Positions 36,979-63,518 are shown, numbered from the stretch's first letter. The stretch: DNA of 64,000 bases from an archaeon (GCA_035289485.1 DATDXA010000029.1:2691-66690), one strand, 5' to 3'. Made by a program: numbers and translations. The notes: a model not told the origin generated them from the sequence alone.

Positions 36979-36992
36979 AAGGGGAAAACAAA

Positions 36993-44179: not shown

Positions 44180-44713
44180 CTATCCAAAGTAAATGAAGAA
44201 AAGAATGCCCGTGACAGCTTCTGGGATTATGAAAAGCACTATTGCGGCGGAAATTACCGAAGCAATGTAGGAGGCAATGAAAAGATTCACGAGCTTGTTT
44301 GCTTTCCTGCGCTTTTTCATGACCCACTCGAATATGAAGGCGCCTATTAGCTCAAATGGCATTAGCACAAGTGAAACCACCGCAGCGGAAACCGAAACTT
44401 TCACAAGGCCGAAAATGTATGATGCAAGAACGTCCCCGGCAGACGGCGCGAACATGGCGGGAATCTCCCCGATTCCGCTTTCATTAAGGGCGAGCAGGAA
44501 CGGGAGAAAATAGAGAAGTAAGATGCCGGTCCAAACAAGGGCAAATGTTGCGGCAAGGGCACTGAAAAGCCAGGTCCACTTGGTTTTGGCCTGTATTCTC
44601 TCACGCAGCCACTTGCCAATAACGATTAGTATGAAAAGAGGGATGGCAATCACTATGGAGCCCTTGAGCAGGTCAAGCAAGGAAAAGAGCAGCAGTTCTA
44701 GCGGGTTTGCCAT
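44180..44713 (-). CDS. Hypothetical polytopic membrane protein (177 aa).
   Basis: 4-5 hydrophobic helices. No motif. Confidence 0.5.
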   Translation of the reverse strand: MANPLELLLFSLLDLLKGSIVIAIPLFILIVIGKWLRERIQAKTKWTWLFSALAATFALVWTGILLLYFLPFLLALNESGIGEIPAMFAPSAGDVLASYIFGLVKVSVSAAVVSLVLMPFELIGAFIFEWVMKKRRKANKLVNLFIASYIASVISAAIVLFIIPEAVTGILFFIYFG

Positions 44714-44758
44714 CTAAACATTAGTTTATTTAACTACTATAAATATCTGTAGTTTACC

Positions 44759-46639
44759 ATGGTTGTCTTTGCTAATGTCGTTGATGCCGCAATTGTCGCA
44801 TATCTTGTTTTTGGCGCCGGGACTTGGGGCTACATTTTCCTGCGTACCGGCTGGCCAAATATCCGGCAGCTTGAGCAAAGTTACAAGAAGGGCTGGAGCA
44901 TTGCATTTGGAATTTCGTTTGCCGCAACCATGGCGGTGATTGTGGGGGCCGCGGCATATTTCATGCCGCAATACGGGAGCGTCACAGAGCTGGTTTTGGT
45001 CGGGTCTCCGGCGGTTTTCATCTCAGGGATAATCGTGTTTTCATTCAAGAGAAGATTCCTGCGCAGGCACGGCCTCACGGTTTCGGTGCCGAAAAGGGTT
45101 GTTGTCGCAAGCATTGCTGCAAGGCGCGCAATGGAGCGCATACCAACCGCAATGTATGTAAGCGCGGGCCAGCTCGCGCTTGCGGGTGATTCTGTTTCAT
45201 TGGACGAAGACGGAGGAATACAGTTCGAGACGCGGCAGACGCGCGCCGCAGCGCAGAAAAAAGGCGCGGGCATGAAGGCGCATGATTTGGAATCCCACAA
45301 GATTGAAGAGCCGACGACGCGAATGATAGAAACGGAAAAAATGTTTGTTGAGGAGCGCTCTGCTCCCCGCGCCAGAGCGCCGCCCGCACAGGCGAAGGCC
45401 GCAAGGGGCAGCACGGAAAAAGAAATCAGCCCGCTGCAGGAGCGGCCGCGCGAGGGCGCGCAGGCTTTAGGCACAGGGAACAAAGAGTGGGCAAAACCCG
45501 GGGCGCAAACAAAACCCCTGAGCGCAAGGCAGATGCATCCCGCGGAGAAGCGCTCATTCTTTGCGGGATTTTTTGGCCAGAAGAAAAAGCCCGCGCAGGC
45601 ACCTGTGCAGCCATCGCCCGCTGCAAAGCCAATTCCGGCCGCATCTGCAAAGCCGTTGCCGGCTGCAGCGAAAGCTTATGTGCCGACACGCGCTGAAATA
45701 GAGGATGCGAAAAAAAGCATAACCGAAGCCGAGAGGGAAATGGAAATAATAGGGCGCAGGATCACGCTCAAAGAGCTCGCGCTTGCAGAAAGGGAGGCCG
45801 AGGAAATAAGGCGCGAACTTGAGGCGCATGATGCGGCAAGGGCAAAGGCGGCCGCAGTGGGAGCGGCAGCGAAAAAGGCCGCGCCCGCTGGCGGCGGAAT
45901 TTTTTCCTCGTTTGGAAAATTGTTCTCCAAAAAAAGCGCGGCGGAACCGTTGCCAGCGAAAGTTCGGCCAGCTGGCACAGTGCACGGAGAGCAGCCTGCG
46001 GCTAAGCCTGCGCAGAATTTGCCGGCAGTAATTGTAAAGCAAAAGCCAAGTGATGCCCAAAATGCAAAGGCCGGCACTGCTGGCACTGCAAAAGGGCCCG
46101 GAAAAGGATGGGAGGGGCAAAAAGTGCTTGCGCCGCAAAAGCCGCCCCAAAAGGAGCCTCTTGGGCAGCGCCCTGCATCTGACCAGTTTGAGGTCAAAGG
46201 CGGCATGGATGAGCAGAGAATGGAGAGGCTAAGGCGCAGGCTTGCAGAGATTGAGGCCCAGAAGGCCACGGCGCAGCGGAGCGGTTTTGGCGGCGCGATG
46301 GATGCGCCAAGGCGCATAAGCGAAAGCTTCCGGCAGGACATGGGCGGAACGCGGGCAAGAAAGTCCACAGAGAACATACTCAGGATTCTTGAGAAAAAAT
46401 CCGCGGAAAAGACCGGGCAGGTCATTTCTGGCGAACAGGCAAGGCGCGAGGCGGAGTCCTCAAAGGAGTTCATAATGGAGAGCGTGAGGGAGGCTAGCTT
46501 TGAGGAAGGGGCGCAGGCGCAGCCCGCTGCGATGACGCAGGAGATTGAGAGGCGCAGGGCTGAAATGGTTCATGCAGAAGAGGCATTGCCAAAATCCGCG
46601 TTGCTGCTAAAAAAGCTTTTGAAAGAGGAAAGTGATTGA
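44759..46639 (+). CDS. Membrane protein with 3 N-terminal TM helices and a ~500-aa Ala/Lys/Pro/Glu-rich disordered region.
   Basis: N-terminal helices (AIVAYLVFGAGTWGYIFL, IAFGISFAATMAVIVGAAAYF, LVLVGSPAVFISGIIVFSF), then low-complexity charged sequence. The local GC is high, so the many overlapping ORFs here are artefacts. Confidence 0.55.
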   Translation: MVVFANVVDAAIVAYLVFGAGTWGYIFLRTGWPNIRQLEQSYKKGWSIAFGISFAATMAVIVGAAAYFMPQYGSVTELVLVGSPAVFISGIIVFSFKRRFLRRHGLTVSVPKRVVVASIAARRAMERIPTAMYVSAGQLALAGDSVSLDEDGGIQFETRQTRAAAQKKGAGMKAHDLESHKIEEPTTRMIETEKMFVEERSAPRARAPPAQAKAARGSTEKEISPLQERPREGAQALGTGNKEWAKPGAQTKPLSARQMHPAEKRSFFAGFFGQKKKPAQAPVQPSPAAKPIPAASAKPLPAAAKAYVPTRAEIEDAKKSITEAEREMEIIGRRITLKELALAEREAEEIRRELEAHDAARAKAAAVGAAAKKAAPAGGGIFSSFGKLFSKKSAAEPLPAKVRPAGTVHGEQPAAKPAQNLPAVIVKQKPSDAQNAKAGTAGTAKGPGKGWEGQKVLAPQKPPQKEPLGQRPASDQFEVKGGMDEQRMERLRRRLAEIEAQKATAQRSGFGGAMDAPRRISESFRQDMGGTRARKSTENILRILEKKSAEKTGQVISGEQARREAESSKEFIMESVREASFEEGAQAQPAAMTQEIERRRAEMVHAEEALPKSALLLKKLLKEESD

Positions 46640-47391
46640 AAATGGATGAAGAGGTACCAAGGAGAATGAGGAGATTTTACAGGGGCGAGAAGCCAACAGA
46701 GGAGGAGGTTAAGCACGAGAGCGCGCAGATTGCGATAAGCGAGGTTGACAGGTTCAGGGAAACCCAGGGCAGATACCCCGCAAGAAACGAGCTTGACGAG
46801 ATAAGCCAGAACGTCTTTGACCAGCTCAAAAGGGAGCTCGCCATTGCAGATGCGGAGGAGAAGGAGAAATCCACGGCGCAGGAAAAATGGGCAAAGCAGG
46901 CAAAAGACGGGAAAAGCTTTTTGGAGCTGCGCAGGCAAAAGCATGTGGCCGCGAAGACAGAGGAAAAAGCGGCGAAAGGCACTGCAAACGGGAAGAAGAA
47001 AATAACGGAGGAAGAGGAAACCCCAATTGGCGGGCCGGAAGAATATGGCGAGGAAGCCGAAGGCCAAGAGCCAAGCGGCGAAATGGAAGTTGATTCGGAA
47101 GAAATTTCCGATGATAAGAATGTGCAAAAGCTCGCGGAGATGGATGAGGTCTCAGGCCTTGAAAAGGAGCTCTCGGACGATGACTCTGACCTTGTTGAGA
47201 GGAAAATCGATTCAGATTTGAACGTGTGCCCAAGGTGCGGCAATCGGGCGGACGAACTTATCTATTGCCCAAGCTGCGGCGAGGCTTTCTGCGACCACTG
47301 CGCAAAGGCCGTTGAGGCGCAGGGAGACTCGGTAAAATACACATGCCCAAAGTGCATGAACGTGTTCAAAAAATCTAAGTCGAGGATGTAG
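46636..47391 (+). CDS. Acidic coiled-coil protein with a C-terminal double zinc-ribbon.
   Basis: The C-terminus CPRCGNRADELIYCPSCGEAFCDHCAKAV...YTCPKCM supplies 8 Cys. ATGA overlap with the upstream gene. Confidence 0.55.
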   Translation: MKMDEEVPRRMRRFYRGEKPTEEEVKHESAQIAISEVDRFRETQGRYPARNELDEISQNVFDQLKRELAIADAEEKEKSTAQEKWAKQAKDGKSFLELRRQKHVAAKTEEKAAKGTANGKKKITEEEETPIGGPEEYGEEAEGQEPSGEMEVDSEEISDDKNVQKLAEMDEVSGLEKELSDDDSDLVERKIDSDLNVCPRCGNRADELIYCPSCGEAFCDHCAKAVEAQGDSVKYTCPKCMNVFKKSKSRM

Positions 47392-48223
47392 GGTTTTGGG
47401 CCAGGGCTGATGTCTCCTGCGCGGATTCCTCTATGCAGTTGAAAACGGCGCTGTCGAAAAGCGGCTCTTTGCGGTCATCTGTTGCGCCAAGCCATGCGGC
47501 ATCCCAGAGCACCAAATCAACCTGCGCATCCTTTGGGCAGAAATGCGATTCGCGGCACGCCACATCATCCACAAGAAGCGTTGTTTTTGCGGTTGCCTGA
47601 GAGGTCTGGCCAACGTTTGAAACAAGGCGCGAGAGCTTCGCCATCAAAATGCCATAGTCCGCCTTTTTGCCCTCGAAATCTATTCCGCAGAAGTAATTCA
47701 CATGCTTTTTGGCAGGATCTGGCGTGTAGGTGACGAATTTCCGAAGTGTCCCGCCAAGATTTTCCCTCTGAAAATTCGTGATGTGCAGGTACATGAATAC
47801 CGGCCTTTTTTCGGAAGGGATTGTGAGGTAGAACGCGTAATCGAAATTGTCCTGCACAGGGTTTAGAATTGATGATATCGCCTTTCCAAGAACCACCCTC
47901 TCATCTGGCCCTATCTGCTGGTCATCATAATAGTCCTCCTTTATTATTGAAAGCAAAAAATCAACTTCTGCCGTGCTCTCCGTAAGGGATGTGCGCACAT
48001 CCCTTGGCGTCGAGGAATAAAGTATCGCCTTAAGGGAGTTCGTGGCAAATGTGGTGCTCGACTCCGCACTTATCTGCTGCTTTACATTGTCGCCATATGA
48101 ATTGGCAAAGCCGAAGAGGAATATTGAAAGGGAGGTGATTATAAGAACGAAGTAGAGCGCGTCGGTTACCGCCGCCTGCCCTCTCTTGCTGCGCAGGTGC
48201 ATGATTTTTACGCTCATTTCCAC
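47375..48223 (-). CDS. Archaeal type IV pilin-like protein (class III signal peptide).
   Basis: KRGQAAVTDALYFVLIITSLSIFLFGF, a K/R-G-Q prepilin peptidase motif followed by a hydrophobic helix. Confidence 0.65.
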   Translation of the reverse strand: MEMSVKIMHLRSKRGQAAVTDALYFVLIITSLSIFLFGFANSYGDNVKQQISAESSTTFATNSLKAILYSSTPRDVRTSLTESTAEVDFLLSIIKEDYYDDQQIGPDERVVLGKAISSILNPVQDNFDYAFYLTIPSEKRPVFMYLHITNFQRENLGGTLRKFVTYTPDPAKKHVNYFCGIDFEGKKADYGILMAKLSRLVSNVGQTSQATAKTTLLVDDVACRESHFCPKDAQVDLVLWDAAWLGATDDRKEPLFDSAVFNCIEESAQETSALAQNPTSST

Positions 48224-48735
48224 GCCACCACGTACAGATGCATTGGCCTCACTATTTTGTTGTCCTCAACAACAATCGGGAAAATCCTTGTCACGATTTT
48301 TTTCCCATCGGAGCCTTCTGCGCTTAGAAAATCCCCTATGCCGAGCTCATCTCCCGAACCCGGGAGCGGATCTATGTTGGAGCAGTAGAAGAAATCGCCG
48401 CCGCTCTTGAAGAATTTTATGTCATAGATGTCAATTTTCGCTTCGCTGGAAGATTCTTGGGCATCCGGTGAAATCCCTGCAATGAATTTCAGGTTCACTG
48501 GCCCCACCTGGTCGCAGAGGCTGTGGAAATTATTGTAATTGTAAATGTAGCTGTTTGACTGCAGTGTCCTTGAAATCCTCATCATGGCAAGGTCGTCCTT
48601 GAAGTCGGCGTTTCTTGCGTCAAATGCGTTGAATGCGAGCGTGAATGTTGAGAAAAATATCACAAGCCCGAAAAGCAGCGGAATGAGCGATGGGAGATCG
48701 TCCCCGATAGGCCCGACAAACCCTTTGCTCAGCAA
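48214..48735 (-). CDS. Pilin-like protein (N-terminal hydrophobic helix).
   Basis: N-terminal LPSLIPLLFGLVIFFSTFTLAFNAF. Sits in the pilin operon. Confidence 0.5.
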   Translation of the reverse strand: MLSKGFVGPIGDDLPSLIPLLFGLVIFFSTFTLAFNAFDARNADFKDDLAMMRISRTLQSNSYIYNYNNFHSLCDQVGPVNLKFIAGISPDAQESSSEAKIDIYDIKFFKSGGDFFYCSNIDPLPGSGDELGIGDFLSAEGSDGKKIVTRIFPIVVEDNKIVRPMHLYVVAWK

Positions 48736-49445
48736 AGAAATCCCCCCTCGCCCTGGTTTCCGGAAATGTGGGCGATTTTTCCTATCCTTTCCCGGTCAAC
48801 TTCGCACCCCGCGGCCTCCTTATTGCAGCCTATTACATAAAAGCTTGTCTTGCCTGCGACGACCTCTTTTATGAACTCAAGAGAGTTCTTGGGGTTTTCG
48901 GCCTGGGGGTCTATAAAAATCGAATCCTCCTCAGGAACAGTTCCGGACCCGTCACCTGAAAGGGTGTCGTACCCTGAGCCGTTGTATGAACCCACGGCGT
49001 AGAGGTGTATTTGCGCGCTTGTCCTGAAGCTGTCTGCCGCTATTGCCTTTGGGACATATGCGCCGCTTGAAGTTGATGAGGTAAATGACCTCTTGATTTC
49101 ATCGCGCGTGTAAATGGAATAAATCAGCACGTTTATTTTGCCCCCGTCTTCCATCTCAAGTTCCTGCTTTGAAACCTTCAGGACATAATAGTAGCTGCTC
49201 CCCGCAATCGCAAGCTCATCTGGGATTTGGTAAGAGTCAGTAAAGCAATAATTCGGGGAGTTCACAAGGGAGAAGGACTGCTCCTTTATTTTCGAGGCGA
49301 GCTCTGAGGCCTCCTTTACCTTTGCAATGTCTGTGAGGCTTGCCGCGAAGAACGCCACAATCGCAAATATCGCGGTAACAAGTATGAGAAGATTCAGCTT
49401 GCTTAGTATGAAATCCAGCATCTTCATCTCCTCCGGTAAACGCAC
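48729..49445 (-). CDS. Pilin-like protein (N-terminal hydrophobic helix).
   Basis: MKMLDFILSKLNLLILVTAIFAIVAFFAASL. Sits in the pilin operon, with overlapping stop/start on both sides. Confidence 0.5.
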   Translation of the reverse strand: MRLPEEMKMLDFILSKLNLLILVTAIFAIVAFFAASLTDIAKVKEASELASKIKEQSFSLVNSPNYCFTDSYQIPDELAIAGSSYYYVLKVSKQELEMEDGGKINVLIYSIYTRDEIKRSFTSSTSSGAYVPKAIAADSFRTSAQIHLYAVGSYNGSGYDTLSGDGSGTVPEEDSIFIDPQAENPKNSLEFIKEVVAGKTSFYVIGCNKEAAGCEVDRERIGKIAHISGNQGEGGFLC

Positions 49446-49984
49446 ACTTCTGGGGTTCCGCTAAAAAGGTTGAACTCCGCTTTCAGAGTGTACTGCCCGC
49501 CGCTTATTCCTTCCTGCTGGTTTTCCCACTCAACGGTTTCGTATTCGTCCGGGTTTCCAAAAACCCCCGGGTTGCACGGCGGGTCATCGCTTGGGAAGGT
49601 GGTCACCTGCGATATGCGCAGGCATTTTGTGTCGGAGAAGAGAGGGTTGTAAAATGTCAGGACCTTGCAGCTCTGGACTCCGCCACCGCAGTACGCAGAG
49701 CAGTAAGCCGGCTCCTCGCTTGTAAGAATCCTTAGCTTGCTCTCATCTTCGCGAAAGCACCCGGGAAGCTCGAACCCGACATTTGCCTTTGACTTGTTTT
49801 TTACAACGGTTTCTATTGCGGTGCGTATCTGCTCCATGCTCTGGTTCATGTTGCCCTTGCATATCTCGAAGTTGAGCTTGTCAAGGGCGTTAAATCCCAC
49901 GACGAGGACAAATCCCATGAGTATCATTGCAATGAGCAGCTCGAAGGGAGCGGACTCCTGGCCCCTTTGGGATAGCATGAGCAT
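49424..49984 (-). CDS. Archaeal type IV pilin (class III signal peptide).
   Basis: MLMLSQRGQESAPFELLIAMILMGFVLVVGF, a canonical RGQ motif plus hydrophobic helix. Confidence 0.7.
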   Translation of the reverse strand: MLMLSQRGQESAPFELLIAMILMGFVLVVGFNALDKLNFEICKGNMNQSMEQIRTAIETVVKNKSKANVGFELPGCFREDESKLRILTSEEPAYCSAYCGGGVQSCKVLTFYNPLFSDTKCLRISQVTTFPSDDPPCNPGVFGNPDEYETVEWENQQEGISGGQYTLKAEFNLFSGTPEVCVYRRR

Positions 49985-50085
49985 TAAAAGGGAAAACCAT
50001 GTATTTAAGGTTCACTTTGGGTTTGAAATGGAGACGCAGTGGCGTAAAAAGCTTGAAGTAGTTTTGGAGAAATAGGCAGAAAATT

Positions 50086-50300
50086 ATTTTTTGTCGGCGA
50101 GCACAGGCTGGTTTTGCACCAACCTTTTTCCTTGGGGAAAAACGTTGACGAAAAAAATGCGAACTCACTACTTATTCGCCAAAACCGGCTGGTTTTGCAC
50201 CAACCTTTTTCCTTGGGGAAAAACGTTGACGAAAAGAAAAGCCATCAAAACTATTTATTGGCAAGCACAGGCTGGTTTTGCACAATGTCCTGGCTCTGCT
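50086..50300. repeat. About 2.5 tandem copies of an ~80-bp repeat, each containing the hairpin TTTTTCC-ttgg-GGAAAAA followed by CGTTGACGAAAA.
   Basis: Copies start near 50086, 50166 and 50246. The cores are identical and the flanks are variable. A diverged inverted copy lies at about 50497-50550. The repeat is homologous to the element at 11272-11320. Confidence 0.8.
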
Positions 50301-50430
50301 TGAACATGGGCTTTATGAGAGCAATGATGAGGATTGCCGCAATCACGAAAACTATCAGAAGGTATACCGAGTTCCACTCGCCCTGCGCGCGCTCTTCTGA
50401 AATCAGTTTTTTGAGTGCTTTTGGCAGCAT
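50254..50430 (-). CDS. Small pilin-like or membrane peptide (59 aa), with its C-terminus encoded by the first repeat copy.
   Basis: Manual translation gives MLPKALKKLISEEREQGEWNSVYLLIVFVIAAILIIALIKPMFKQSQDIVQNQPVLANK. It has a Flp-like G-x4-V-Y hydrophobic core. It is below the ORF-track cutoff. Confidence 0.4.
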
Positions 50431-50604: not shown

Positions 50605-51171
50605 TTATGGGATGATTGCAACGAGGCAGACGCGCTTGCTTCCGCCATCAGATGCGAAATCGGATGAGGCATCGCTTTCATTGCAGTTCGTCACATCAAG
50701 CGCATAATCGCTGCTTTCGCCATATTCGTAATCATCCATTGTCTGGCCGATATCGCCTGACCGGTCGCACACAACAAGAAGCCTCACTTTCTGCTCGAAA
50801 TTGCCTGTATACCTTATTACCTGCGTGTTGCCTGCGCTGAAACTATCTATATTCGGGGCATTGTCCGCGACAAGAAGGCATATTTCCCCTCCCGAGAGCG
50901 CCTTTGACCCTTCCGCAACCGTTCTTGCATTCAGGCTGTCGCCATTTTTGAAGCTGACATTTTCTATGATGCCGGGAAGCCCGAGCTCATTGACCTTGCT
51001 TTTGACGGCATTAGTTGCCGCATTGTTTGCAGTGGTGCTTCCAATTGCAGGCAACACCTGCAGGGTCTGAAGAAGGATAAGGAGAATTGCGCCCGCGACA
51101 ACGGCGGCTATAAGCAGCTTAAAGACATCAAAGCCCTGCCCGCGTGCATTCATATGAACCATGGAAATCAT
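50605..51171 (-). CDS. Archaeal type IV pilin (class III signal peptide).
   Basis: NARGQGFDVFKLLIAAVVAGAILLILL. Confidence 0.7.
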   Translation of the reverse strand: MISMVHMNARGQGFDVFKLLIAAVVAGAILLILLQTLQVLPAIGSTTANNAATNAVKSKVNELGLPGIIENVSFKNGDSLNARTVAEGSKALSGGEICLLVADNAPNIDSFSAGNTQVIRYTGNFEQKVRLLVVCDRSGDIGQTMDDYEYGESSDYALDVTNCNESDASSDFASDGGSKRVCLVAIIP

Positions 51172-51237
51172 TATGCTAAAGGTTTTACAAATATATAAAC
51201 CTTGTTATTTGCGCAGGCGCAGGCGGTTTTTTTCGGG

Positions 51238-56549: not shown

Positions 56550-59500
56550 ATGTCGACTGATTTTACAAAAAGCGGCGCGGCAAAACTTTTGCTCTTTTTT
56601 GCGGTGTTTATTGCCACGGCGGCTTTGATGATTAATTTCACGGCAACCGGTTTTGCACCCCTCTCCGGCGCGGGCTCGGGGCTTGTCGCACACTACACAT
56701 TCGATGAGGGAAGCGGCACAACCTCGGTTGATTTTAGCGGGCAGGGAAATAACGCAACGCTTGTCGGCAGCGCATCTTGGGCCGCGGGAAAAACCGGGCA
56801 GGCGCTTTTGGTTTCAGGCGGCTCAAGAGCCACAATATCGGGGGACAGAATAGGCACAGGAGCGGCAACTATTTGCGCATGGATAAACCCCTCAGCAGTG
56901 ACATACCTTCACTCAATCGTTTCCACTACCGCTTTCCAGTTACAGGCCTTCAATACGGGAAGCGGCAGCAGCTACAGCATTTATCTTTTGAATAATTCGG
57001 CGGCATGGCAGAACACTGCGATTTCGGCCGGCGGAATAACCCCCGGGCAGTGGGCACATGTGTGCGCGGTAAGGCAGAGCAGCGGAAACACCACCCTCTA
57101 TGTTAACGGCGCGCAATCTGGAGCGGCAAACCAGTTCGCGGGCACACCGGTAAATAATTACGGCGGCGTCCCGCTCACACAAACAACAATCGGCGCGGAC
57201 CCAAACGGCAGCGCCGCATTCACAGGCAGCATCGATGACGTGCGCATCTACAACAGGGAACTGCCGGCAAACGAAGTGCAAGAACTCTACAACGGAGCCC
57301 CAGCAGTTCCTGACACGCAAGCGCCGAGCACACCAACAGGGCTGAATGCAACCGCAGCATCCCAAAGCCAGATAAATCTCACATGGAACCCGTCATCGGA
57401 CAACGTCATTATAATCGGATATAATGTGTACAGGAACGGAACGCATGTCGGCACAGCCACAACAACAGCATACAACGACACAGGCCTTGCCGCAAACACC
57501 GCATACTCATACACCGTGGCGGCATACGACGCCGCAGGAAACACAAGCGCGCAATCATCACAGGCAAGCGCAACAACAACATCAACCCCGCCCGCAACAT
57601 TCACCCTAACAGTTGCAAAGTCCGGGACCGGAAGCGGAACCATTTCAGGCGGCGCAATCAACTGCGGAACAACCTGCACACAAACAGCAATCACAACAGG
57701 AACACAAATCACACTCACAGCAAACCCCGCAACCGGCTCAACATTCACAGGCTGGAGCGGAGCATGCACAGGAACAACAAACTGCACACTCACAATCGGC
57801 GCAAACACAAGCACAACCGCAACATTCAACACAACAAGCGGCGGAGGTTCCGGCAACACAATAAATGTGAACTGCTCTGGCAACATCACAACCGCACTGC
57901 AAAACGCAATAAACTCCGCCTCGGACGGGGACACAATCAACATCGGCGCGGGAAGCTGCTCTGCTGGCCAGGTTTCTTGGGTGAACAAGAACATAACCGT
58001 GAGGGGCCAGGGAATTGGCGCAACCAACGTGAGCGGGCTGTCATTTGATGTCAAAAATAGCACAAAATCGGCTTTCAGAATCACGGGCATGAGTGTGGGC
58101 GCGGCGCCGCAATGGCGCATCAACGCCGACAACAGGACAACCGGCATAAAGGGCTGGAGGCTTGATCACATCGAATGGTCATATCCCACGTGCACGCAAA
58201 ACATTGCGGTGATGATTGACGGCATTACCTGGGGCCTTATTGACAACAGCGTGTTCCGGAATGCGGGCAACGCGATTTTCCTACGCAGCTACGCAGAGGG
58301 CACAGACGAGGTAAGCCCATGGCCGCCAGACGGCTCGCCGGGAATGGGCGGCTATTCGTGGCTTCTCCCGCTGAATATGGGCAGCGATGAGGCAGTGTAT
58401 GTTGAGGACAGCACTTTCATAATGGACAATGGCTGCTATTACGGTGTCGGCGATTCATTCTATGGCGGAAAGAGGGTGTTTCGCCACAATACAGTCACCA
58501 ATGCCTATTTCCAGAACCACGCGGCGCGCGGGCATGAAAGGGGCGGAAGCATTAGTTCTGAGGTTTACAACAATGTTTTTGACGCAACGGATTCGGGATG
58601 GTACCGGCCGATACACATAAGGTCCGGCACAGGGGTTGTGTTCAACAACACAATTAAGGGATTTTTCAACAGAATTGATGTGGACGACCAGAGGAGTTGT
58701 GGCGAGAACATCAATTCGCCCTTTGGTGCGTGCAACGGCTCAAGCCCGTGGGACGGGAACCAGCCGGGGCAGAGCGGCTATCCGTGCCTTGACCAGATAG
58801 GCAGGGGCACTGGCCAGTACCCTAATCAGCCGCTGGCACCGTACTATTTCTGGAACAACGGTTCATCCGCCACATGCTCAACTGGCGGGAGCTGCAACAA
58901 CAGCACAAGCATAGGGCAGAGCGCGTGCAGCACATCGCACATACAGGAGGGCAGGGACTACATAATCGGAACGCAAAAGCCAGGGTATTCCCCATACACC
59001 TATCCGCATCCGCTTCAGGGCGGGGTTTCGCCGCCATCTGACACATCGGCGCCAACAGTTCCAGCCGGGCTTGGCGCTTCGCAAACCACTTCCAGTGGCA
59101 CCACGATTTCCTGGAACGCCTCAACAGACAACACGGGCGTCACAGGATACAGGGTCTACAGAAACAGCGTTCAAATAGGCACGGCAACCGGCACATCATA
59201 CGCCGACACCGGCCTCTCACCCTCAACAACATACTCATACAGAATCTCCGCATACGACGCCGCAGGAAACACAAGCGCACAATCAAGCGCACTCTCGGTA
59301 ACAACAAGCGCGGGAACAGCAACATTTACCCTAACAGTTGCAAAGTCCGGGACCGGAAACGGAACAGTCTCAGGCGGCACAATCAACTGCGGAACAACCT
59401 GCACACAAACAGCAACAACAGGAACACAAATCACACTCACAGCAAACCCCGCAACCGGCTCAACATTCACAGGCTGGAGCGGAGCATGCACAGGAACAAC

Positions 59501-62500
59501 AAACTGCACACTCACAATAAACACCAACACAAGCGCAACCGCAACATTCAACACAACAACCCCGCCACCCACCGGAGGGCTGATACCAGCAGACAGGCTC
59601 AATGACTGGACCTATACGGGCGTTCCAGGCGGCATACCTAACAGGACCACGATTTGCGCGACTTTAAATCCGGGGGCGAGCGCAAGCCAGATTAACAGCG
59701 CAATCTCCTCGTGCAACAACGGAGTGGTCTATCTCAACGCTGGCACTTACAATGTCACTGGAATCCAGCTCTACAAGAGCAATGTGACCTTGCGAGGGGC
59801 TGGCGCCGACAAGACAATTCTCAAGGGCGGCAATATCATTGCAATGGGCAACGGAGGCAATTCAGCATCCGGCATATCCATAACAGGCGGAACAGCCAAG
59901 GGCTCAACGGCGATTACAGTCAGCAACACAAGCGGCCTGTCCGCAGGCATGATGATAGAAATTGACAGGGCAAACGACCCGGGCGTGGTCGTATCCACAA
60001 CGGGCAACGCTTCACGTTTCATCCGCCAGGTCAACAGGATAAAATCCATCAGCGGCAATACAATCAACCTGGAAAATCCGCTTTTCTATAATTTCAACTC
60101 AAGCCCCACAATCAGATACACATTCCCCACATTTACGAGCATGAGCGGTGTTGAAGACCTCAAGCTCGACCACTCAGGGAGCGGTTCATCTGGTTATGCA
60201 TTTTACACCAATTATTGCTATGGCTGCTGGGTCAAAGGAGTCCATTCATACAACCCCTATGGATTTCATATGGTCATTCTTGGCACTCTGAATATCGAGA
60301 TTAGGGACTCTTTTTTCAATGACGCCCAGACAGTGGGAGCCAACAACGCAGGGCTTGCGGTGTATGGAAGCGACCTATACGGCTCAAACAGCAACATGAA
60401 AATAGAAAACAACATTTTTGACAAATCGTTCCCCGGAATTGAACTGCAAAATTCCACCAGCGGCAACTATCTTGGCTACAACTACGGGCATGCAACCCAG
60501 GTCGTACCCGACGATTACTTCACCACATGGATGTTCCTTGACAATCACGGCCCGCATGACATGATGAACCTGTGGGAAGGCAATACCGGCGAGCTCTTCG
60601 GCTCTGATGGGTATTTCGGCGGCTCAAGCCACGGCGTGGCATTCCGCAACAATTTCACAGGAGTAAACCTGCGCGGGCCGCAAAACCCTGACAATCCGGT
60701 GCGCCTCAACCGCCTGTCCTATTACTACACGCTGGTCGGAAACGTCCTCGGTTCGCCAAGCGCAAGGCCGGTCAAATATGAGCAGGCAAGCGACGGGTGC
60801 GGCGATGGCCTTGCAGTATACCGGCTTGGCTATCCCAACATCGGCAATTGCGGGCTCACCGATGTTACCGGAAACAACGTGCCAGGCGGCATGAGTTATC
60901 CTGATGCCAAGGTCAAATCAACCCTTTTCAGGTGGGGCAATTATGATTACTTCAATAACGCCGCGCGCTGGGATTCAAGCGAAATACCGGCAGGTGTCGC
61001 AGTCCCCGCCACCCAGGCACTGCCAGATTCGCTCATATACAGTTCAAGGCCTTCATGGTGGCCATCGGCAGTTGCATGGCCCCCAATAGGCCCCGATGTT
61101 GCGGCAAAGGCCAATAAGATTCCCGCACAGCTATGTTTTGAAAATAACAATATCGCGAACGGCGGCGCCTTCAATGCGGCTTCATGCTATGGGTCGACTA
61201 CATCACCGACATGCACTTCTTTTACTTATTCCGCTTGGGGCGCATGTATTGGAGGGATGCAGACGCGGACGGTGCTTTCAAGTTTGCCAAGCGGGTGCAC
61301 GGGCGGCAGCCCAATCACTTCGCAGGCATGCACGGTTGCAAACAACCCGCCAACGGTTTCTATCACAAGCCCCGCGAACAACACAACGCTCTCATCCCCG
61401 TCAAGCGTTACAATCACGGCGAGCGCAAGCGACAGCGACGGCGCAATCAACAAGGTCGAATTCTTCAACGCAGCAACACTCATAGCAACAACCACAACCC
61501 CGCCCTACACAACAACACTCAACAACCCAACCGCCGGAACATACACGCTCACGGCAAAAGCAACCGACAACCAAAGCGCAACCACAACCTCCACACCAAT
61601 AACACTCACAATCACACAAGACACAACACCACCCATAAGAAGCAACGGAGAGCCAACAGGAACACTCCCCTCAACAATAACACAAACAAACATCTCACTC
61701 AACACAAACGAACCCGCAAACTGCCGCTACACAACCATAGCAAACACAACCTACAACAACATGGGACTCACACTAACACCAAACACACCAATCTCAACAA
61801 CACACACAACAAACATCACAGGAATACAACCATCAAGAACCTACACATACTACATACGCTGCACCGACAACGCCGGAAACGCCAACACGAACGACTACAC
61901 AATCACATTCACAACAGCAGCACCCTCACCAATAAACGGCTCATGCGGACCAACAAACAACACATGCACACAAGGAACACTAAATGATGTCACAGATTCG
62001 GCAACCAACTACCTCTGGAACTGCAACGGAACAAATGGAGGAACAAACGCAAGCTGCTCAATACCAAAACCGGTAAACGGAGCTTGCGGAACAACACTCA
62101 ATTCCTGCACACAAGGAACACTAAACGACACAGCAGACAACGCAACACAATACCTATGGAACTGCAACGGAACAAACGGAGGAACTGTCGCTAGCTGCTC
62201 GCTTACCAAACCCATAAACGGAACATGCGGAACCGCAGCAAAAGCATACGCACCAACCGAAAACTTCCCCAACGGAAACTACTGCAACACCGGAACACCA
62301 AACCCCACAACACCAACAAACCCAACCACAACAACACCCTCGAACTGGACGTGCACCGGAACCAACGGCGGCACAAACAGCCCAACATGCACCGCAACAA
62401 GAACAGCAACACCAATCAACGGAACATGCTCAAACACGCCCGAAACATGCACAACAGGAACATACACCGATGCAACAGACACACCCACACAATACAACTG

Positions 62501-63518
62501 GAACTGCAACGGAATCAACGGCGGAACGAATGCGACATGCACACAACCAAAACCACCACCAACAGTACAAGACGGAACAACACTTGATGTAATACTTGAC
62601 ACACCACAACAATTCACACTTGCAACACCCGGAACATACAAACTAACCGGAACCGTTATTGCACCAGACGGCGGACAAAACTCAGTATACATAGACATCG
62701 ACACCAACCCCGGAACCGGCGCAGGAACAGGAGACGAAACAAAAGCATGGGGCATGACAATAACAACAACACCACAACAGCAAGACGCAACATGGCAAGG
62801 CAACCCAAAAACATGGACACTCACAACCGGAACACACACACTCTACATAAACACAAGAGAAACAGGAACACAAATCACCACCATTAGATTCACAAACCTA
62901 CAACCAGTAAATGGCATCTGCTCAACAACACTAAACACATGCAACAACGGAACATTCCAAGACGCTACCGACACAGCAACAACCTACAACTGGAACTGCA
63001 ACGGAACAAACGGCGGAACCAACGCCACATGCTCAACACCCAAACCACCAACAGCAACAGACGCCGACGCAGACGGAGTATCAGACGCAGTCGACAGATG
63101 CCCAACACCCCCACTCGCAGCAAACCAAATCAATAGCTACGGCTGCCCAATACCAACAGCAACCAAATTCGACATCAAACCAGACTTCACAAACATGGAC
63201 CTAAACAACGTCACAAACCTAGAAATCGGAATCTCAACCTACGGAAAAATAACATACACCAACACACACCTAACACTCGCAAACATACAAAACGGACTAT
63301 ACCACCCAGCAAACCTCGACAACGACATAAACATCACACGCGGCCTAATCACAGTAAACGCAAACAACATACCCGCACTAAACCAACCAGTAGCAATAAC
63401 ACTCTACAACATAAACGTAACAAACCCAAAAATCAAAAGAAACGGAACAATCTGCACAGAATGCCAAATAATATCAAACACAAACGGAACACTCGTATTC
63501 ACAGTACCCGGATTCTAA
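56550..63518 (+). CDS. Giant secreted multidomain surface protein (2322 aa): LamG/ConA-like lectin domain, FN3 domains, divergent InlB B-repeat-like modules, right-handed beta-helix regions, CNGTNGGTN-Cys repeats and a Thr/Asn/Pro-rich C-terminal region.
   Basis: Signal anchor MSTDFTKSGAAKLLLFFAVFIATAALMINF. LamG-like LVAHYTFDEGSG...VDDVRIYNRELPANEVQELY. FN3 LTWNPSSDN...YRNGTHVGTA...YSYTVAAYDAAGNTS, present twice. FTLTVAKSGTGSGTISGGAINCGTTCTQ...FTGWSGACTGTTNCTL, present twice. Repeated YLWNCNGTNGGTNASCS. Very dense in N-x-S/T sequons. Confidence 0.8.
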   Translation: MSTDFTKSGAAKLLLFFAVFIATAALMINFTATGFAPLSGAGSGLVAHYTFDEGSGTTSVDFSGQGNNATLVGSASWAAGKTGQALLVSGGSRATISGDRIGTGAATICAWINPSAVTYLHSIVSTTAFQLQAFNTGSGSSYSIYLLNNSAAWQNTAISAGGITPGQWAHVCAVRQSSGNTTLYVNGAQSGAANQFAGTPVNNYGGVPLTQTTIGADPNGSAAFTGSIDDVRIYNRELPANEVQELYNGAPAVPDTQAPSTPTGLNATAASQSQINLTWNPSSDNVIIIGYNVYRNGTHVGTATTTAYNDTGLAANTAYSYTVAAYDAAGNTSAQSSQASATTTSTPPATFTLTVAKSGTGSGTISGGAINCGTTCTQTAITTGTQITLTANPATGSTFTGWSGACTGTTNCTLTIGANTSTTATFNTTSGGGSGNTINVNCSGNITTALQNAINSASDGDTINIGAGSCSAGQVSWVNKNITVRGQGIGATNVSGLSFDVKNSTKSAFRITGMSVGAAPQWRINADNRTTGIKGWRLDHIEWSYPTCTQNIAVMIDGITWGLIDNSVFRNAGNAIFLRSYAEGTDEVSPWPPDGSPGMGGYSWLLPLNMGSDEAVYVEDSTFIMDNGCYYGVGDSFYGGKRVFRHNTVTNAYFQNHAARGHERGGSISSEVYNNVFDATDSGWYRPIHIRSGTGVVFNNTIKGFFNRIDVDDQRSCGENINSPFGACNGSSPWDGNQPGQSGYPCLDQIGRGTGQYPNQPLAPYYFWNNGSSATCSTGGSCNNSTSIGQSACSTSHIQEGRDYIIGTQKPGYSPYTYPHPLQGGVSPPSDTSAPTVPAGLGASQTTSSGTTISWNASTDNTGVTGYRVYRNSVQIGTATGTSYADTGLSPSTTYSYRISAYDAAGNTSAQSSALSVTTSAGTATFTLTVAKSGTGNGTVSGGTINCGTTCTQTATTGTQITLTANPATGSTFTGWSGACTGTTNCTLTINTNTSATATFNTTTPPPTGGLIPADRLNDWTYTGVPGGIPNRTTICATLNPGASASQINSAISSCNNGVVYLNAGTYNVTGIQLYKSNVTLRGAGADKTILKGGNIIAMGNGGNSASGISITGGTAKGSTAITVSNTSGLSAGMMIEIDRANDPGVVVSTTGNASRFIRQVNRIKSISGNTINLENPLFYNFNSSPTIRYTFPTFTSMSGVEDLKLDHSGSGSSGYAFYTNYCYGCWVKGVHSYNPYGFHMVILGTLNIEIRDSFFNDAQTVGANNAGLAVYGSDLYGSNSNMKIENNIFDKSFPGIELQNSTSGNYLGYNYGHATQVVPDDYFTTWMFLDNHGPHDMMNLWEGNTGELFGSDGYFGGSSHGVAFRNNFTGVNLRGPQNPDNPVRLNRLSYYYTLVGNVLGSPSARPVKYEQASDGCGDGLAVYRLGYPNIGNCGLTDVTGNNVPGGMSYPDAKVKSTLFRWGNYDYFNNAARWDSSEIPAGVAVPATQALPDSLIYSSRPSWWPSAVAWPPIGPDVAAKANKIPAQLCFENNNIANGGAFNAASCYGSTTSPTCTSFTYSAWGACIGGMQTRTVLSSLPSGCTGGSPITSQACTVANNPPTVSITSPANNTTLSSPSSVTITASASDSDGAINKVEFFNAATLIATTTTPPYTTTLNNPTAGTYTLTAKATDNQSATTTSTPITLTITQDTTPPIRSNGEPTGTLPSTITQTNISLNTNEPANCRYTTIANTTYNNMGLTLTPNTPISTTHTTNITGIQPSRTYTYYIRCTDNAGNANTNDYTITFTTAAPSPINGSCGPTNNTCTQGTLNDVTDSATNYLWNCNGTNGGTNASCSIPKPVNGACGTTLNSCTQGTLNDTADNATQYLWNCNGTNGGTVASCSLTKPINGTCGTAAKAYAPTENFPNGNYCNTGTPNPTTPTNPTTTTPSNWTCTGTNGGTNSPTCTATRTATPINGTCSNTPETCTTGTYTDATDTPTQYNWNCNGINGGTNATCTQPKPPPTVQDGTTLDVILDTPQQFTLATPGTYKLTGTVIAPDGGQNSVYIDIDTNPGTGAGTGDETKAWGMTITTTPQQQDATWQGNPKTWTLTTGTHTLYINTRETGTQITTIRFTNLQPVNGICSTTLNTCNNGTFQDATDTATTYNWNCNGTNGGTNATCSTPKPPTATDADADGVSDAVDRCPTPPLAANQINSYGCPIPTATKFDIKPDFTNMDLNNVTNLEIGISTYGKITYTNTHLTLANIQNGLYHPANLDNDINITRGLITVNANNIPALNQPVAITLYNINVTNPKIKRNGTICTECQIISNTNGTLVFTVPGF

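What the first reader, a model, noticed from the sequence alone, without database searches (positions are those of the whole stretch)
44180..63518. Candidate attachment apparatus: a type IV pilus locus with at least seven pilins, flanked on both sides by giant surface proteins.
One minus-strand operon (56364 down to 47375) encodes a 763-aa FlaI/PilB-like ATPase, a 775-aa double-T2SF platform protein and seven pilin-like genes. Four of the pilins carry canonical K/R-G-Q class III signal peptides. The operon sits directly between a 1514-aa C-terminally anchored giant protein (39509-44053) and a 2322-aa lectin/FN3/beta-helix giant protein (56550-63518). It also includes a TM-plus-disordered protein and a double zinc-ribbon protein on the opposite strand. 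Pairing an unusually pilin-rich Tad-like machine with giant adhesins is what would be expected of a cell-cell or host attachment organelle in an episymbiotic archaeon. This specific gene architecture does not match any named system I can recall.
Basis: partly seen in the sequence, partly recalled or inferred. Interest (0 to 1): 0.7.

Follow-up and report, generated by a model that had tools for sequence, protein, structure and literature searches.

The report
Conserved pilus operon of Iainarchaeota archaea
This is a gene cluster for a type IV pilus-like surface filament that keeps the same gene order across a phylum of tiny uncultured archaea, and it always travels with a 1,500-residue surface protein that resembles nothing known.

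Summary
On the minus strand, 56364-47375 encodes a secretion ATPase, a 775-aa platform protein and seven pilin-like proteins. Two accessory genes lie on the plus strand, and giant proteins lie on both sides.

I add four points.
- Six of the seven pilin-like proteins, not four, carry a class III signal ([KR][GA]|Q/F plus a hydrophobic helix) that is conserved in 40-85 orthologs each.
- The organism is an Iainarchaeota (Diapherotrites, DPANN) archaeon. The gene order platform, seven pilins, zinc-ribbon protein, membrane proteins, 1514-aa giant recurs in about 40 independent contigs.
- The locus is not an archaellum, Ups or Aap locus. It best fits the loosely defined archaeal "System 2" type IV filament.

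Attachment is inferred, not shown. Verdict: a new, phylum-specific variant of a known kind of machine, with orphan conserved parts.

The parts
54073..56364 (-). Secretion (VirB11/FlaI/CpaF-superfamily) ATPase. It is 763 aa as the maximal ORF and probably 758 aa from the GTG at 56349. About 300 aa at the N-terminus form an extension that matches no model.
   Evidence: T2SSE 9.6e-20. Best PDB sequence relatives are A. fulgidus GspE 2OAP at 3.6e-31, then CpaF and FlaI, all over residues ~300-660 only. Orthologs are 55-99% identical in Iainarchaeota/Diapherotrites MAGs.
51707..54034 (-). Platform (PilC/TadC/FlaJ-type) polytopic membrane protein, 775 aa, with two T2SSF-like halves.
   Evidence: T2SSF match at residues 165-296, below threshold. 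Both halves align to the window's single-repeat T2SSF protein. About 10 hydrophobic spans. Orthologs are 38-86% identical and always lie next to the pilins.
51238..51723 (-). Pilin A (152 aa from 51696), signal ..ERG|QAFEPFKMLIGA. Paralog of pilin B.
   Evidence: Conserved [KR]GQ signal. The AF2 model has pLDDT 83, a 48-residue N-terminal helix and a beta head. hhalign A vs B gives 99% probability.
50605..51171 (-). Pilin B (188 aa), signal ..ARG|QGFDVFKLLIAAVVA.
50251..50430 (-). Mini-pilin (59 aa, about 44 aa mature), signal ..ERA|QGEWNSVYLLIVF. It has no globular head and is Flp/EpdE-like in architecture. It is the most conserved of the pilins.
   Evidence: [KR]AQ is conserved in 44 orthologs. 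Identity to orthologs is 45-84%, against 25-45% for the other pilins in the same loci. One ortholog gives a faint Flp_Fap hit, E=0.042.
50084..50250 (-). Two tandem partial copies (~81 nt each) of the 3' end of the mini-pilin gene, lying in the intergenic gap.
   Evidence: The last 10 codons are kept with synonymous changes only. The copies are absent in the closest relative, L025.
49424..49984 (-). Pilin C (186 aa), signal ..QRG|QESAPFELLIAMILMGF. It is the first gene of a tightly overlapping four-gene block.
   Evidence: Its N-terminal helix is related to those of pilins A and B.
48729..49445 (-). Pilin-like bitopic protein D (232-238 aa). It has no class III signal and starts M(K)MLDFILSKLNLLILV.
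   Evidence: No signal in 53 of 54 orthologs. Present in 43/43 testable loci.
48214..48735 (-). Pilin-like protein E (173 aa), signal ..SKG|FVGPIGDDLPSLIPLLFGLVIFF.
   Evidence: [KR]G[FY] followed by an invariant GxIGDDLPSL motif in 67 orthologs. Present in 61/61 loci.
47375..48223 (-). Pilin-like protein F (280-282 aa, the largest), signal ..KRG|QAAVTDALYFVLII.
   Evidence: It was the anchor of the metagenome scan.
46636..47391 (+). Cytoplasmic accessory protein (241-251 aa). It has a PRRxRRFYR N-terminus, an acidic low-complexity middle and a C-terminal double zinc ribbon.
   Evidence: Weak DZR hit, 1.7e-3. The cysteine pattern and position are conserved.
44759..46639 (+). Membrane protein with 3 N-terminal TM segments and a ~500-aa disordered Ala/Lys/Glu/Pro-rich tail.
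   Evidence: Conserved next to the zinc-ribbon gene in the closer relatives.
44180..44713 (-). Four-TM membrane protein (177 aa), always directly upstream of the 1514-aa gene.
   Evidence: Not related to exosortases (hhalign not significant). No GxGD peptidase motif and no family hit.
39509..44053 (-). Conserved orphan surface protein 'G1514'. It has a signal peptide and a 1,460-aa mixed alpha/beta ectodomain. Its tail is LNLPSLPE followed by a TM segment and RRNAKKR.
56550..63518 (+). Variable neighbour, not a conserved part. It is a 2322-aa N-terminally anchored protein with Laminin_G_3, fn3, InlB-B-repeat, Big_7 and Cys-rich repeat domains. It lies between the ATPase and an archaeosortase-family gene at ~64290-64859, just outside the window.
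   Evidence: No positional homolog was found. The downstream genes were read in L118.

Best explanation
This is the phylum-specific type IV filament (archaeal pilus) system of Iainarchaeota.

Shown:
- The locus encodes a hexameric-type secretion ATPase with intact catalytic motifs, a two-repeat platform protein and six proteins with conserved class III signal peptides.
- All are kept in one fixed order across about 40 independent loci.

Inferred mechanism:
- A prepilin peptidase encoded elsewhere cuts after [KR][GA].
- The ATPase drives the platform to extract the processed subunits from the membrane and stack them into a filament.
- The shaft is made of pilin A and its paralog pilin B, of the headless 44-residue mini-pilin (Flp/EpdE-like), or of a mixture of these.
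- The four translationally coupled genes C-D-E-F form a priming or tip complex, analogous to bacterial minor-pilin complexes. The largest protein, F, would sit at the tip, and the uncleaved protein D would stay in the membrane.
- The zinc-ribbon protein and the TM-plus-disordered protein act on the cytoplasmic face as a scaffold or regulator.
- The four-TM protein and the 1514-aa orphan protein form a conserved envelope module working with the filament. The orphan protein is probably anchored or processed through its LPSLPE-TM-basic tail, possibly by the neighbouring archaeosortase-family enzyme. It could be the filament's adhesin or docking partner, or the wall element the filament passes through.

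The most likely role is adhesion to surfaces or to other cells.
For: - ATPase: T2SSE domain, catalytic motifs, and closest solved relatives afGspE, CpaF and FlaI.
- Platform: each half aligns to a T2SSF protein.
- Class III-type signals are conserved in six families of 41-82 members each.
- The pilin A model shows a 48-residue N-terminal helix and a beta head, pLDDT 83.
- A and B are paralogs, and C shares their N-terminal helix.
- The C-D-E-F start and stop codons overlap or abut.
- Linkage to the F-gene anchor: E 61/61, D 43/43, C 37/37, mini-pilin 35/37, B 32/34, A 28/31, platform 24/26, G1514 31/31.
- The zinc-ribbon and four-TM genes keep their positions even in distant low-GC lineages.
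- An archaeosortase-family gene (TIGR04178 above cut-off) is the divergent neighbour of the ATPase in 21 loci. In this genome it lies just past the window end.
- The tripartite tail is conserved in the G1514 family.
- The published description of System 2 matches: extended ATPase N-terminus, one platform gene, pilins with and without class III signals, membrane proteins and large adhesin-like proteins (bioRxiv 10.64898/2026.04.22.720090, read).
Against: - No prepilin peptidase gene is in the window.
- No pilin matches any Pfam or NCBIfam pilin model.
- The second T2SSF repeat is supported only at P~1e-4, and comparison of the two halves with each other was not significant.
- The ATPase is adjacent in only 11/22 loci. 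It stands alone in a housekeeping context in other lineages, so it may serve more than this filament.
- The G1514 tail hits no known CTERM sorting model. A second protein in the window, 21535-22545, carries a more PGF-like tail.
- There are no expression, proteomic or imaging data, so the adhesion role is by analogy only.
Confidence: 0.72

Rival explanations
1. Envelope-assembly or secretion pseudopilus. The machine builds only a short piston or pseudopilus, as a bacterial type II secretion system does. Its real job would be to export, insert or position the 1514-aa protein, and perhaps other giant surface proteins, in the cell wall rather than to make a long adhesive pilus.
For: - The pilin block and G1514 are linked in 31/31 loci and lie on the same strand.
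- There are many minor-pilin-like subunits and one uncleaved membrane-anchored pilin-like protein.
- An archaeosortase-family gene and variable giant proteins cluster at the ATPase end.
- There is no detectable similarity to known adhesive pilins.
Against: - G1514 has its own Sec-type signal peptide and membrane anchor, so it needs no pseudopilus for export.
- No archaeal T2SS-like secretion has been described (my own knowledge).
- A Flp-like mini-pilin and an A/B pilin pair are typical of true filaments.
Confidence: 0.12
2. Ordinary pilus plus cell-wall gene. G1514 is simply the main S-layer or envelope glycoprotein of Iainarchaeota, anchored by archaeosortase as the Haloferax S-layer glycoprotein is by ArtA. 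It would sit beside the pilus operon only because the two are co-regulated surface genes. The giants would play no part in the pilus.
For: - G1514 appears to be one copy per locus, of constant length, with a signal peptide and a tripartite C-terminal tail.
- An archaeosortase-family gene is in the same neighbourhood.
- S-layer-like genes are often found in archaeal T4P loci (PMC4858521).
Against: - The predicted fold has large helical regions and is not the all-beta, Ig-rich build of known S-layer proteins.
- No structural match to any S-layer protein was found.
- Linkage survives every rearrangement seen, including loss of ATPase adjacency.
- A dedicated four-TM partner always precedes it.
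Confidence: 0.2
3. Archaellum or other motility organelle.
For: The ATPase's best NCBIfam hit by E-value is the FlaI model.
Against: - The score is 154.8 against a cut-off of 550.
- The window contains no archaellin (Arch_flagellin) and no ArlF, ArlG, ArlH, ArlCDE or ArlX gene.
- The ATPase has a large extra N-terminal domain, unlike the minimal archaellum ATPases (bioRxiv 10.64898/2026.04.22.720090).
Confidence: 0.02
4. DNA- or nutrient-uptake filament, that is a competence-pilus-like or bindosome-like device serving a genome-reduced scavenger.
For: - DPANN archaea have reduced biosynthesis (literature).
- Archaeal TFF machines are proposed to carry substrate-binding proteins with class III signals (bioRxiv 10.64898/2026.04.22.720090).
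Against: No ComEC-like channel, nuclease, ABC transporter or substrate-binding protein lies in or beside the cluster in any locus inspected.
Confidence: 0.05

Closest known systems
Archaeal type IV filament 'System 2' / clade 2 (e.g. Haloferax volcanii PilB3-PilC3 adhesion pili). Sources: Makarova, Koonin & Albers 2016 (PMC4858521); Sivabalasarma & Albers 2026 (bioRxiv 10.64898/2026.04.22.720090).
   Same: - ATPase with a long extra N-terminal region.
- A single platform gene.
- Several pilins, with and without class III signals.
- Extra membrane proteins.
- A large surface protein in the locus.
- The closest solved ATPase is the A. fulgidus GspE homolog.
   Different: - None of the pilins or accessory proteins is recognisably homologous to any described family.
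- The signature minor pilin arCOG02911 could not be tested.
- The ATPase's clade was not determined by phylogeny.
- The gene order and the G1514, four-TM and zinc-ribbon modules are specific to Iainarchaeota.
Epd pilus of Methanococcus maripaludis (System 1) and bacterial Tad/Flp pili.
   Same: - A very short major-pilin-type subunit without a globular head (the 59-aa gene).
- A many-gene operon with several minor pilins.
- CpaF is among the closest solved ATPases.
   Different: - System 1 and Tad split the platform into two genes, and Epd has its own peptidase EpdA. Here there is one fused platform gene and no peptidase.
- A separate ATPase with two platform genes, which looks more System 1/4A-like, lies 20 kb away in the same window.
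Archaellum (ArlB/ArlI/ArlJ/ArlF/G/H...).
   Same: The ATPase and platform belong to the same superfamilies, and the subunits have class III signals.
   Different: It is not a FlaI equivalog (154.8 vs 550 bits). There are no archaellins and no ArlF, ArlG, ArlH, ArlCDE or ArlX genes.
DPANN type IV pilus 'dark-matter islands' (Makarova, Wolf & Koonin 2019, PMC6393860, Fig. 2A).
   Same: The general observation is the same: DPANN loci with an ATPase, TadC and a run of unrecognisable proteins that carry signal peptides and are inferred to be pilins.
   Different: That paper gives a generic example. As far as I could find, no paper describes the following:
- the fixed seven-pilin order;
- the census of signals;
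- the obligatory 1,500-aa orphan partner;
- the archaeosortase link.
Archaeosortase/exosortase sorting systems (ArtA with PGF-CTERM S-layer glycoprotein; PEP-CTERM).
   Same: - A conserved short motif, a TM helix and a basic cluster lie at the C-terminus of G1514.
- A TIGR04178-positive sortase-family gene is in the same neighbourhood.
   Different: - The LPSLPE tail matches no curated CTERM model.
- The sortase-family protein is short (189-230 aa) and fits no named subfamily.
- Cleavage is untested.
Bacterial minor-pilin priming/tip complexes (GspH-I-J-K; FimU-PilV-W-X).
   Same: Four co-translated pilin-like genes of graded size follow the major pilin genes. This is a functional analogy only.
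   Different: There is no sequence relationship. One member (D) has no cleavable signal.

Membership tests
Type IV filament (TFF) superfamily | PilB/FlaI/CpaF-type secretion ATPase with Walker A, Asp box, Walker B and His box | tested here: met
   T2SSE 9.6e-20. PDB relatives 2OAP, CpaF and FlaI. The motifs were read in the sequence.
Type IV filament (TFF) superfamily | Polytopic platform protein with T2SSF (PilC/TadC/FlaJ) repeats | tested here: inconclusive
   Pfam T2SSF gives 21.4-22.8 bits against a cut-off of 25.2, for the first repeat only. hhalign of each half to a T2SSF protein gives P=2.6e-5 and 7.8e-5, probability 61-75%. The position next to the ATPase is conserved.
Type IV filament (TFF) superfamily | Subunits with a class III signal peptide: short basic leader, G/A at -1, then a ~20-residue hydrophobic helix | tested here: met
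   Six families have a conserved [KR][GA]|[QFY] motif followed by a hydrophobic helix. The model of pilin A shows a 48-residue N-terminal helix.
Type IV filament (TFF) superfamily | Dedicated class III signal (prepilin) peptidase of family A24 in the genome | not testable with these tools
   None is in the 64-kb window. The rest of the genome is not available here.
Type IV filament (TFF) superfamily | Pilin head domain with a fold like solved pilins or archaellins | tested here: not met
Archaellum | ArlI/FlaI equivalog ATPase | tested here: not met
   NF058587 scores 154.8 bits against a cut-off of 550.
Archaellum | Archaellins and ArlF/ArlG stator, ArlH, ArlCDE or ArlX in the locus | tested here: not met
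   No Arch_flagellin, KaiC-like or other such hit was found in any ORF of the cluster or window.
Archaeal TFF System 2 (clade 2) | ATPase with extended N-terminal region, and a single platform gene | tested here: met
   Residues 1-~300 lie outside every ATPase match. There is one 775-aa platform gene.
Archaeal TFF System 2 (clade 2) | Several pilins including pilin-like proteins without class III signal, membrane proteins, and a large adhesin-like protein | tested here: met
Archaeal TFF System 2 (clade 2) | ATPase falls in clade 2 (arCOG-based tree), and the signature minor pilin arCOG02911 is present | not testable with these tools
   No arCOG profiles or reference ATPase set were available. 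The only indirect hint is the best PDB hit, A. fulgidus GspE.
Aap / Ups pili of Sulfolobales | AapX (Fe-S domain protein), or UpsX with UpsA/B pilins | tested here: not met
   No Fe-S/radical-SAM-type hit or other corresponding hit was found in the cluster. BasE-type ATPase model scores 81 bits against a cut-off of 1000.
System 1 / Epd / Tad | Platform split into two genes, and a dedicated EpdA-type peptidase | tested here: not met
   This operon has a single fused platform gene. The split arrangement is found instead in the second locus at 28582-31718.
Archaeosortase substrate (for the 1514-aa protein) | C-terminal tripartite signal: conserved motif, TM helix and basic cluster | tested here: met
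   LNLPS[LMV]PE, then a TM helix, then R/K residues, conserved in the family.
Archaeosortase substrate (for the 1514-aa protein) | Match to a curated CTERM sorting-domain model, and a cognate sortase in the genome | tested here: inconclusive
   No CTERM model was hit (best is Loki-CTERM at 13.8 vs 19.9 bits, in AR10). A TIGR04178-positive sortase-family gene is adjacent to the cluster in 21 loci and in this genome.

The most novel reading that the evidence does not exclude
The whole supercluster could be the genetic basis of the DPANN cell-contact organelle. The supercluster comprises the archaeosortase-family gene, a variable giant-protein slot, the ATPase, the platform, seven pilin-like proteins, cytoplasmic adaptors, the four-TM protein and the 1514-aa orphan.

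In this reading the filament would deliver or position the 1514-aa protein. That protein's strictly conserved hydrophobic FFWAGIF(S/A)T.AIQ segment would insert into a partner cell's membrane. By topology rules this segment lies outside the cell. The result would be the intercellular bridge or nanotube that cryo-tomography has seen in other DPANN, and whose components are unknown (PMC11329633).

The unusually conserved ATPase, which is detached from the pilins in many lineages, would then be a general motor for this contact apparatus.
Probability: 0.08. Interest if true: 0.9.

Novelty: new variant of a known kind. Interest (0 to 1): 0.55.

Why it matters
DPANN archaea are a large part of archaeal diversity. 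Every cultivated member lives attached to a host, yet the molecules that make the contact are unknown.

This locus gives a concrete, phylum-wide parts list for Iainarchaeota:
- a motor;
- a platform;
- six signal-bearing pilins with defined cleavage sites;
- one uncleaved pilin-like protein;
- two cytoplasmic or membrane adaptors;
- an obligatory 1,500-residue orphan surface protein with a possible new sortase signal.

Each item can be tested directly by proteomics, antibody labelling or cryo-ET in enrichment cultures.

The locus also shows that arCOG-based classifications of archaeal pili miss a complete, well-conserved system, because none of its non-motor parts is recognised by current family models.

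If the function is only generic adhesion, this is a useful but modest addition to the catalogue of archaeal pili.

Tried and rejected
- **Archaellum, Ups, Aap and bindosome identity.** Rejected by model scores and missing accessory genes.
- **The 177-aa four-TM protein as a divergent prepilin peptidase or archaeosortase.** It has no GxGD motif and no family hit. hhalign against the exosortase-like family was not significant.
- **Internal duplication of the platform, tested by comparing its two halves.** Not significant, probability 0.2%. Support came only from comparing each half with a third T2SSF protein.
- **Profile search of the representative library with the full alignment.** It failed because the profile exceeded 1,200 positions. 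I repeated it with a single sequence.
- **The 2322-aa giant as a conserved partner.** Rejected, with no positional homolog. A different giant family (N-terminal LDFLD.KG.P motif plus a TM segment, CarboxypepD_reg domains) occupies the ATPase-upstream side in six other loci. That family is absent from the window.
- **tRNA and Rfam scans of the window.** Both were empty.
- **Literature.** I found no paper describing this operon in Iainarchaeota or Diapherotrites.

Full report
**What is in the sequence**

The ORF map of 38-64 kb shows a run of nine minus-strand genes from 56364 down to 47375:
- a 763-aa ATPase;
- a 775-aa polytopic membrane protein;
- seven small proteins of 161, 188, 59, 186, 238, 173 and 282 aa.

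Two plus-strand genes follow (46636-47391 and 44759-46639). Then come two more minus-strand genes: a 177-aa four-TM protein and a 1514-aa protein (39509-44053).

A 2322-aa protein (56550-63518) is transcribed divergently from the ATPase. A TATA-like TTTTAAAT lies about 30 nt before its ATG.

Public gene calls on identical contigs from other samples give the same genes, including the 59-aa one.

**The motor**

The ATPase matches Pfam T2SSE (9.6e-20). Its Walker A (GSRGSGKT), Asp-box (VIVQEDTLE), Walker B (DSALIVGEVR) and His-box (GTIHGD) motifs are intact (sequence).

Its closest solved relatives are the A. fulgidus GspE homolog 2OAP (3.6e-31), Caulobacter CpaF and Sulfolobus FlaI. All align only to residues ~300-660. 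The first ~300 residues match nothing.

Against NCBI's FlaI equivalog model it scores 154.8 bits, where 550 is required. It is not an archaellum motor.

Orthologs begin at residue 6, so the protein is probably 758 aa.

The platform protein gives only one sub-threshold T2SSF match, at residues 165-296. Comparing its halves with each other was not significant. Each half does align over about 254 columns to the single-repeat T2SSF protein at 30828-31718 of the same window (P=2.6e-5 and 7.8e-5). The hydrophobic-span pattern is that of a two-repeat PilC/FlaJ. I rate 'double T2SSF' as moderately supported.

**The pilins**

I aligned each small protein with its orthologs from related loci. I then took a census over 115 loci. 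Six families have a conserved class III-type signal:

| Family | Signal |
|---|---|
| A (161/152 aa) | [KR]G\|QAFEPF |
| B (188 aa) | [KR]G\|QAFDVF |
| mini-pilin (59 aa) | [KR]A\|Q(G/S)EW |
| C (186 aa) | [KR][GA]\|QESAPFELL |
| E (173 aa) | [KR]G\|[FY](I/V)G.IGDDLPSLIP |
| F (282 aa) | [KR][GA]\|QAA(V/I)TDAL |

In every case a hydrophobic helix follows. Protein D (238 aa) has none in 53 of 54 orthologs; it begins directly with ML.FILSK.NLLILV.

Further points on the pilins:
- A and B are full-length paralogs (hhalign probability 99%). C shares their N-terminal helix. D and E are unrelated in sequence to the rest.
- An AlphaFold model of pilin A, built from 10 sequences, has pLDDT 83. It shows a 48-residue N-terminal helix followed by a small beta-rich head with four conserved cysteines. 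This is the pilin 'lollipop' architecture.
- The head matches no solved pilin.
- No pilin hits any Pfam or NCBIfam model, in this genome or in a distant relative. The only exception is a faint Flp_Fap hit for the mini-pilin, E=0.042.
- The mini-pilin would be about 44 residues after cleavage and has no head domain, like Flp or EpdE.
- The mini-pilin is also the most conserved subunit: 45-84% identity, against 25-45% for the other pilins in the same loci, the near-identical relative L025 excepted.
- C, D, E and F have overlapping or abutting start and stop codons.

**Whose genome, and how conserved**

ATPase homologs at 55-99% identity come from MAGs named Candidatus Diapherotrites or Iainarchaeum. 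More distant ones carry labels of Micrarchaeota, Altiarchaeota and Forterrea.

In 35 genome loci the order is ATPase, platform, A, B, mini, C, D, E, F, then zinc-ribbon and TM-disordered genes on the other strand, then the four-TM gene and the giant. This order is seen wherever the contig is long enough.

A metagenome scan anchored on protein F returned 80 more loci. Profile HMMs of every component gave the following linkage to the anchor:

| Component | Loci with it / testable loci |
|---|---|
| E | 61/61 |
| D | 43/43 |
| C | 37/37 |
| mini-pilin | 35/37 |
| B | 32/34 |
| A | 28/31 |
| platform | 24/26 |
| 1514-aa family | 31/31 |
| ATPase | 11/22 |

In distant low-GC lineages the zinc-ribbon-like gene (N-terminal RRE.RHYR) and the four-TM gene still sit between F and the giant, although they fall below the HMM threshold.

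In other lineages the ATPase stands alone next to MCM- and RPA-like genes.

The conserved core is therefore platform, seven pilin-like genes, the four-TM gene and the 1514-aa gene. The ATPase is often but not always attached.

**The two giants are different things**

*The 1514-aa protein.*
- It has 50 full-length homologs of nearly constant length (1460-1690 aa) at 29-63% identity. All are annotated as hypothetical, and they include one in the complete AR10 genome.
- An exhaustive HMMER search of 1.84 billion representatives finds only 135 clusters. The named ones are Iainarchaeum.
- It has no Pfam domain and no PDB sequence relative.
- Its C-terminus is a conserved LNLPS[LMV]PE motif, then a TM helix, then a basic cluster.
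- A strictly conserved hydrophobic FFWAGIF(S/A)T.AIQ segment lies near residue 940. Given the signal peptide and the positive-inside C-terminal anchor, it should lie outside the cell.

*The 2322-aa protein.*
- It contains Laminin_G_3, fn3, InlB-B-repeat, Big_7 and Cys-rich repeats.
- It has no positional homolog in any related locus.

**An archaeosortase link**

In 21 related loci the gene transcribed divergently from the ATPase is a 189-230-aa membrane protein. It passes NCBI's exosortase/archaeosortase signature model, TIGR04178 (31-41 bits against a cut-off of 23).

The window has no such gene. Reading 1.6 kb past the end of the 2322-aa gene on an identical public contig shows a 216-aa protein followed by a 189-aa member of this family. 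The latter matches the family HMM at E=1.1e-69 and lies at about 64290-64859 in window coordinates.

In this genome the 2322-aa and 216-aa genes therefore lie between the ATPase and the sortase-family gene. In six other loci an unrelated giant family sits on that side. In the close relative L031 a 309-aa protein with local similarity to the 2322-aa protein lies there. This side of the cluster is a variable slot for large surface proteins.

The tripartite tail of the 1514-aa protein makes it a candidate substrate of the sortase-family enzyme. However, its tail hits no curated CTERM model. The window's other tail-anchored secreted protein, 21535-22545, has a more PGF-like tail. This step remains inference.

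**How it most likely works**

*Shown:*
- a catalytically intact secretion ATPase;
- a PilC-like platform;
- six families of class III-signal proteins;
- fixed gene order.

*Inferred from established knowledge of type IV filaments:*
- A prepilin peptidase encoded elsewhere cuts after [KR][GA].
- The ATPase turns the platform to lift subunits out of the membrane into a helical filament.
- A/B and/or the mini-pilin build the shaft.
- The co-translated C-D-E-F set primes or caps the filament, with uncleaved D remaining in the membrane.
- The zinc-ribbon and TM-disordered proteins act at the cytoplasmic face.
- The four-TM protein and the 1514-aa protein form an envelope module that works with the filament.

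Adhesion is the default function by analogy with the characterised archaeal non-archaellum filaments (PMC4858521; bioRxiv 10.64898/2026.04.22.720090).

*Rivals:*
- a short pseudopilus that serves envelope assembly;
- an ordinary pilus that merely neighbours the S-layer gene;
- an uptake device.

None is excluded by sequence alone.

**Comparison with what is known**

The anatomy matches the generic description of archaeal 'System 2': an ATPase with an extended N-terminus, one platform gene, pilins with and without class III signals, membrane proteins and large adhesin-like proteins. Membership by the defining arCOGs and ATPase clade could not be tested.

Makarova et al. (2019) already noted that DPANN pilus islands contain unrecognisable pilins. 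DPANN genome papers simply record 'type IV pili present'.

I found no description of this operon, of its obligatory orphan partner or of the sortase link. I therefore class it as a new variant of a known kind.

Cryo-tomography of another DPANN lineage shows host-symbiont nanotubes and thin filaments of unknown composition. That leaves room for a more interesting role, which I rate as unlikely (about 8%) but not excluded.

**Limits**

- There are no functional data.
- No peptidase gene is in the window.
- The pilin and giant folds are unmatched to any solved structure.
- The second T2SSF repeat is only moderately supported.
- ATPase clade placement was not done.
- Identification of the major pilin rests on conservation and architecture only.

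Noticed in passing
window 28582-31718 (+): There is a second type IV filament motor here. It comprises a 490-aa T2SSE ATPase (4e-41) and two separate T2SSF platform genes, with no pilin genes beside it. The layout is System 1/4A- or Tad-like. The ATPase is only 26% identical to the main one. It may share the pilins 20 kb away.
   Followed up: partly
window 50084-50250 (-): Two extra tandem ~81-nt partial copies of the 3' end of the 59-aa mini-pilin gene lie in the intergenic gap. The last ten codons (VQNQPVLANK) differ from the gene only by synonymous changes, 6 of 6 in the second copy. The closest relative lacks them. They may be remnants of gene duplication or recombination between strains; this is unexplained.
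   Followed up: partly
just beyond the window end (~64290-64859, +), read in L118:7926-8495: This is an exosortase/archaeosortase-family membrane protein of 189 aa. In 21 related loci it is the gene directly next to the ATPase. Here it is separated from the ATPase by the 2322-aa and 216-aa surface-protein genes.
   Followed up: yes
window 33519-37700: A DDE transposase (33519-34694) lies in a low-GC stretch (0.37-0.39) of small unknown genes. This is an insertion relative to the AR10 genome. There the 1514-aa gene is followed directly by homologs of 38579-39457, 37812-38669 and the PAC2 gene.
   Followed up: partly
loci L025-L030, L034, L035; proteins P0003, P0027, P0028, P0054: Many orthologs of the ATPase carry an intein (LAGLIDADG_3 and Intein_splicing, total ~1270 aa). 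It is inserted near residue 498, inside the Asp-box region. The window's copy is intein-free.
   Followed up: no
loci L007, L022, L026, L028, L029, L030: A conserved family of 1,500-2,900-aa proteins lies on the ATPase-upstream side in other lineages. Its members have an N-terminal cytoplasmic LDFLD.KG.PVY.YSDF motif, one TM segment and CarboxypepD_reg domains. The family is absent from the window.
   Followed up: partly
ATPase N-terminus, window ~56230-56300 vs L014, L026, L035: Orthologs in other lineages have a CxxC...C..H motif, probably a zinc site, near the N-terminus of the ATPase. The window protein keeps only the last Cys-x-x-His (..DDRNCRFHV).
   Followed up: no
window 1-12118: This is a cluster of sugar-nucleotide and glycosylation genes: three NAD epimerase/dehydratases, UDP-glucose dehydrogenase, two nucleotidyltransferases, two GT2 glycosyltransferases, a methyltransferase and an LPG_synthase_TM protein. 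It could glycosylate surface proteins.
   Followed up: no
window 12152-15040, 16724-21481, 21535-22545 (+): Three further surface proteins lie here. One is a 962-aa protein with a Big_7 domain. One is a 1585-aa protein with no Pfam hit. One is a 336-aa secreted protein with a PGF-CTERM-like tail (PPTGFFG, then a TM segment, then KKK), which is another candidate sortase substrate.
   Followed up: no
5' extensions of pilin A orthologs (P0122, P0124, P0125): Several orthologs have an in-frame upstream partial copy of the signal motif ((R/K)GQAFEPF) without the hydrophobic helix. It lies ahead of the real signal, and the window gene lacks it.
   Followed up: no
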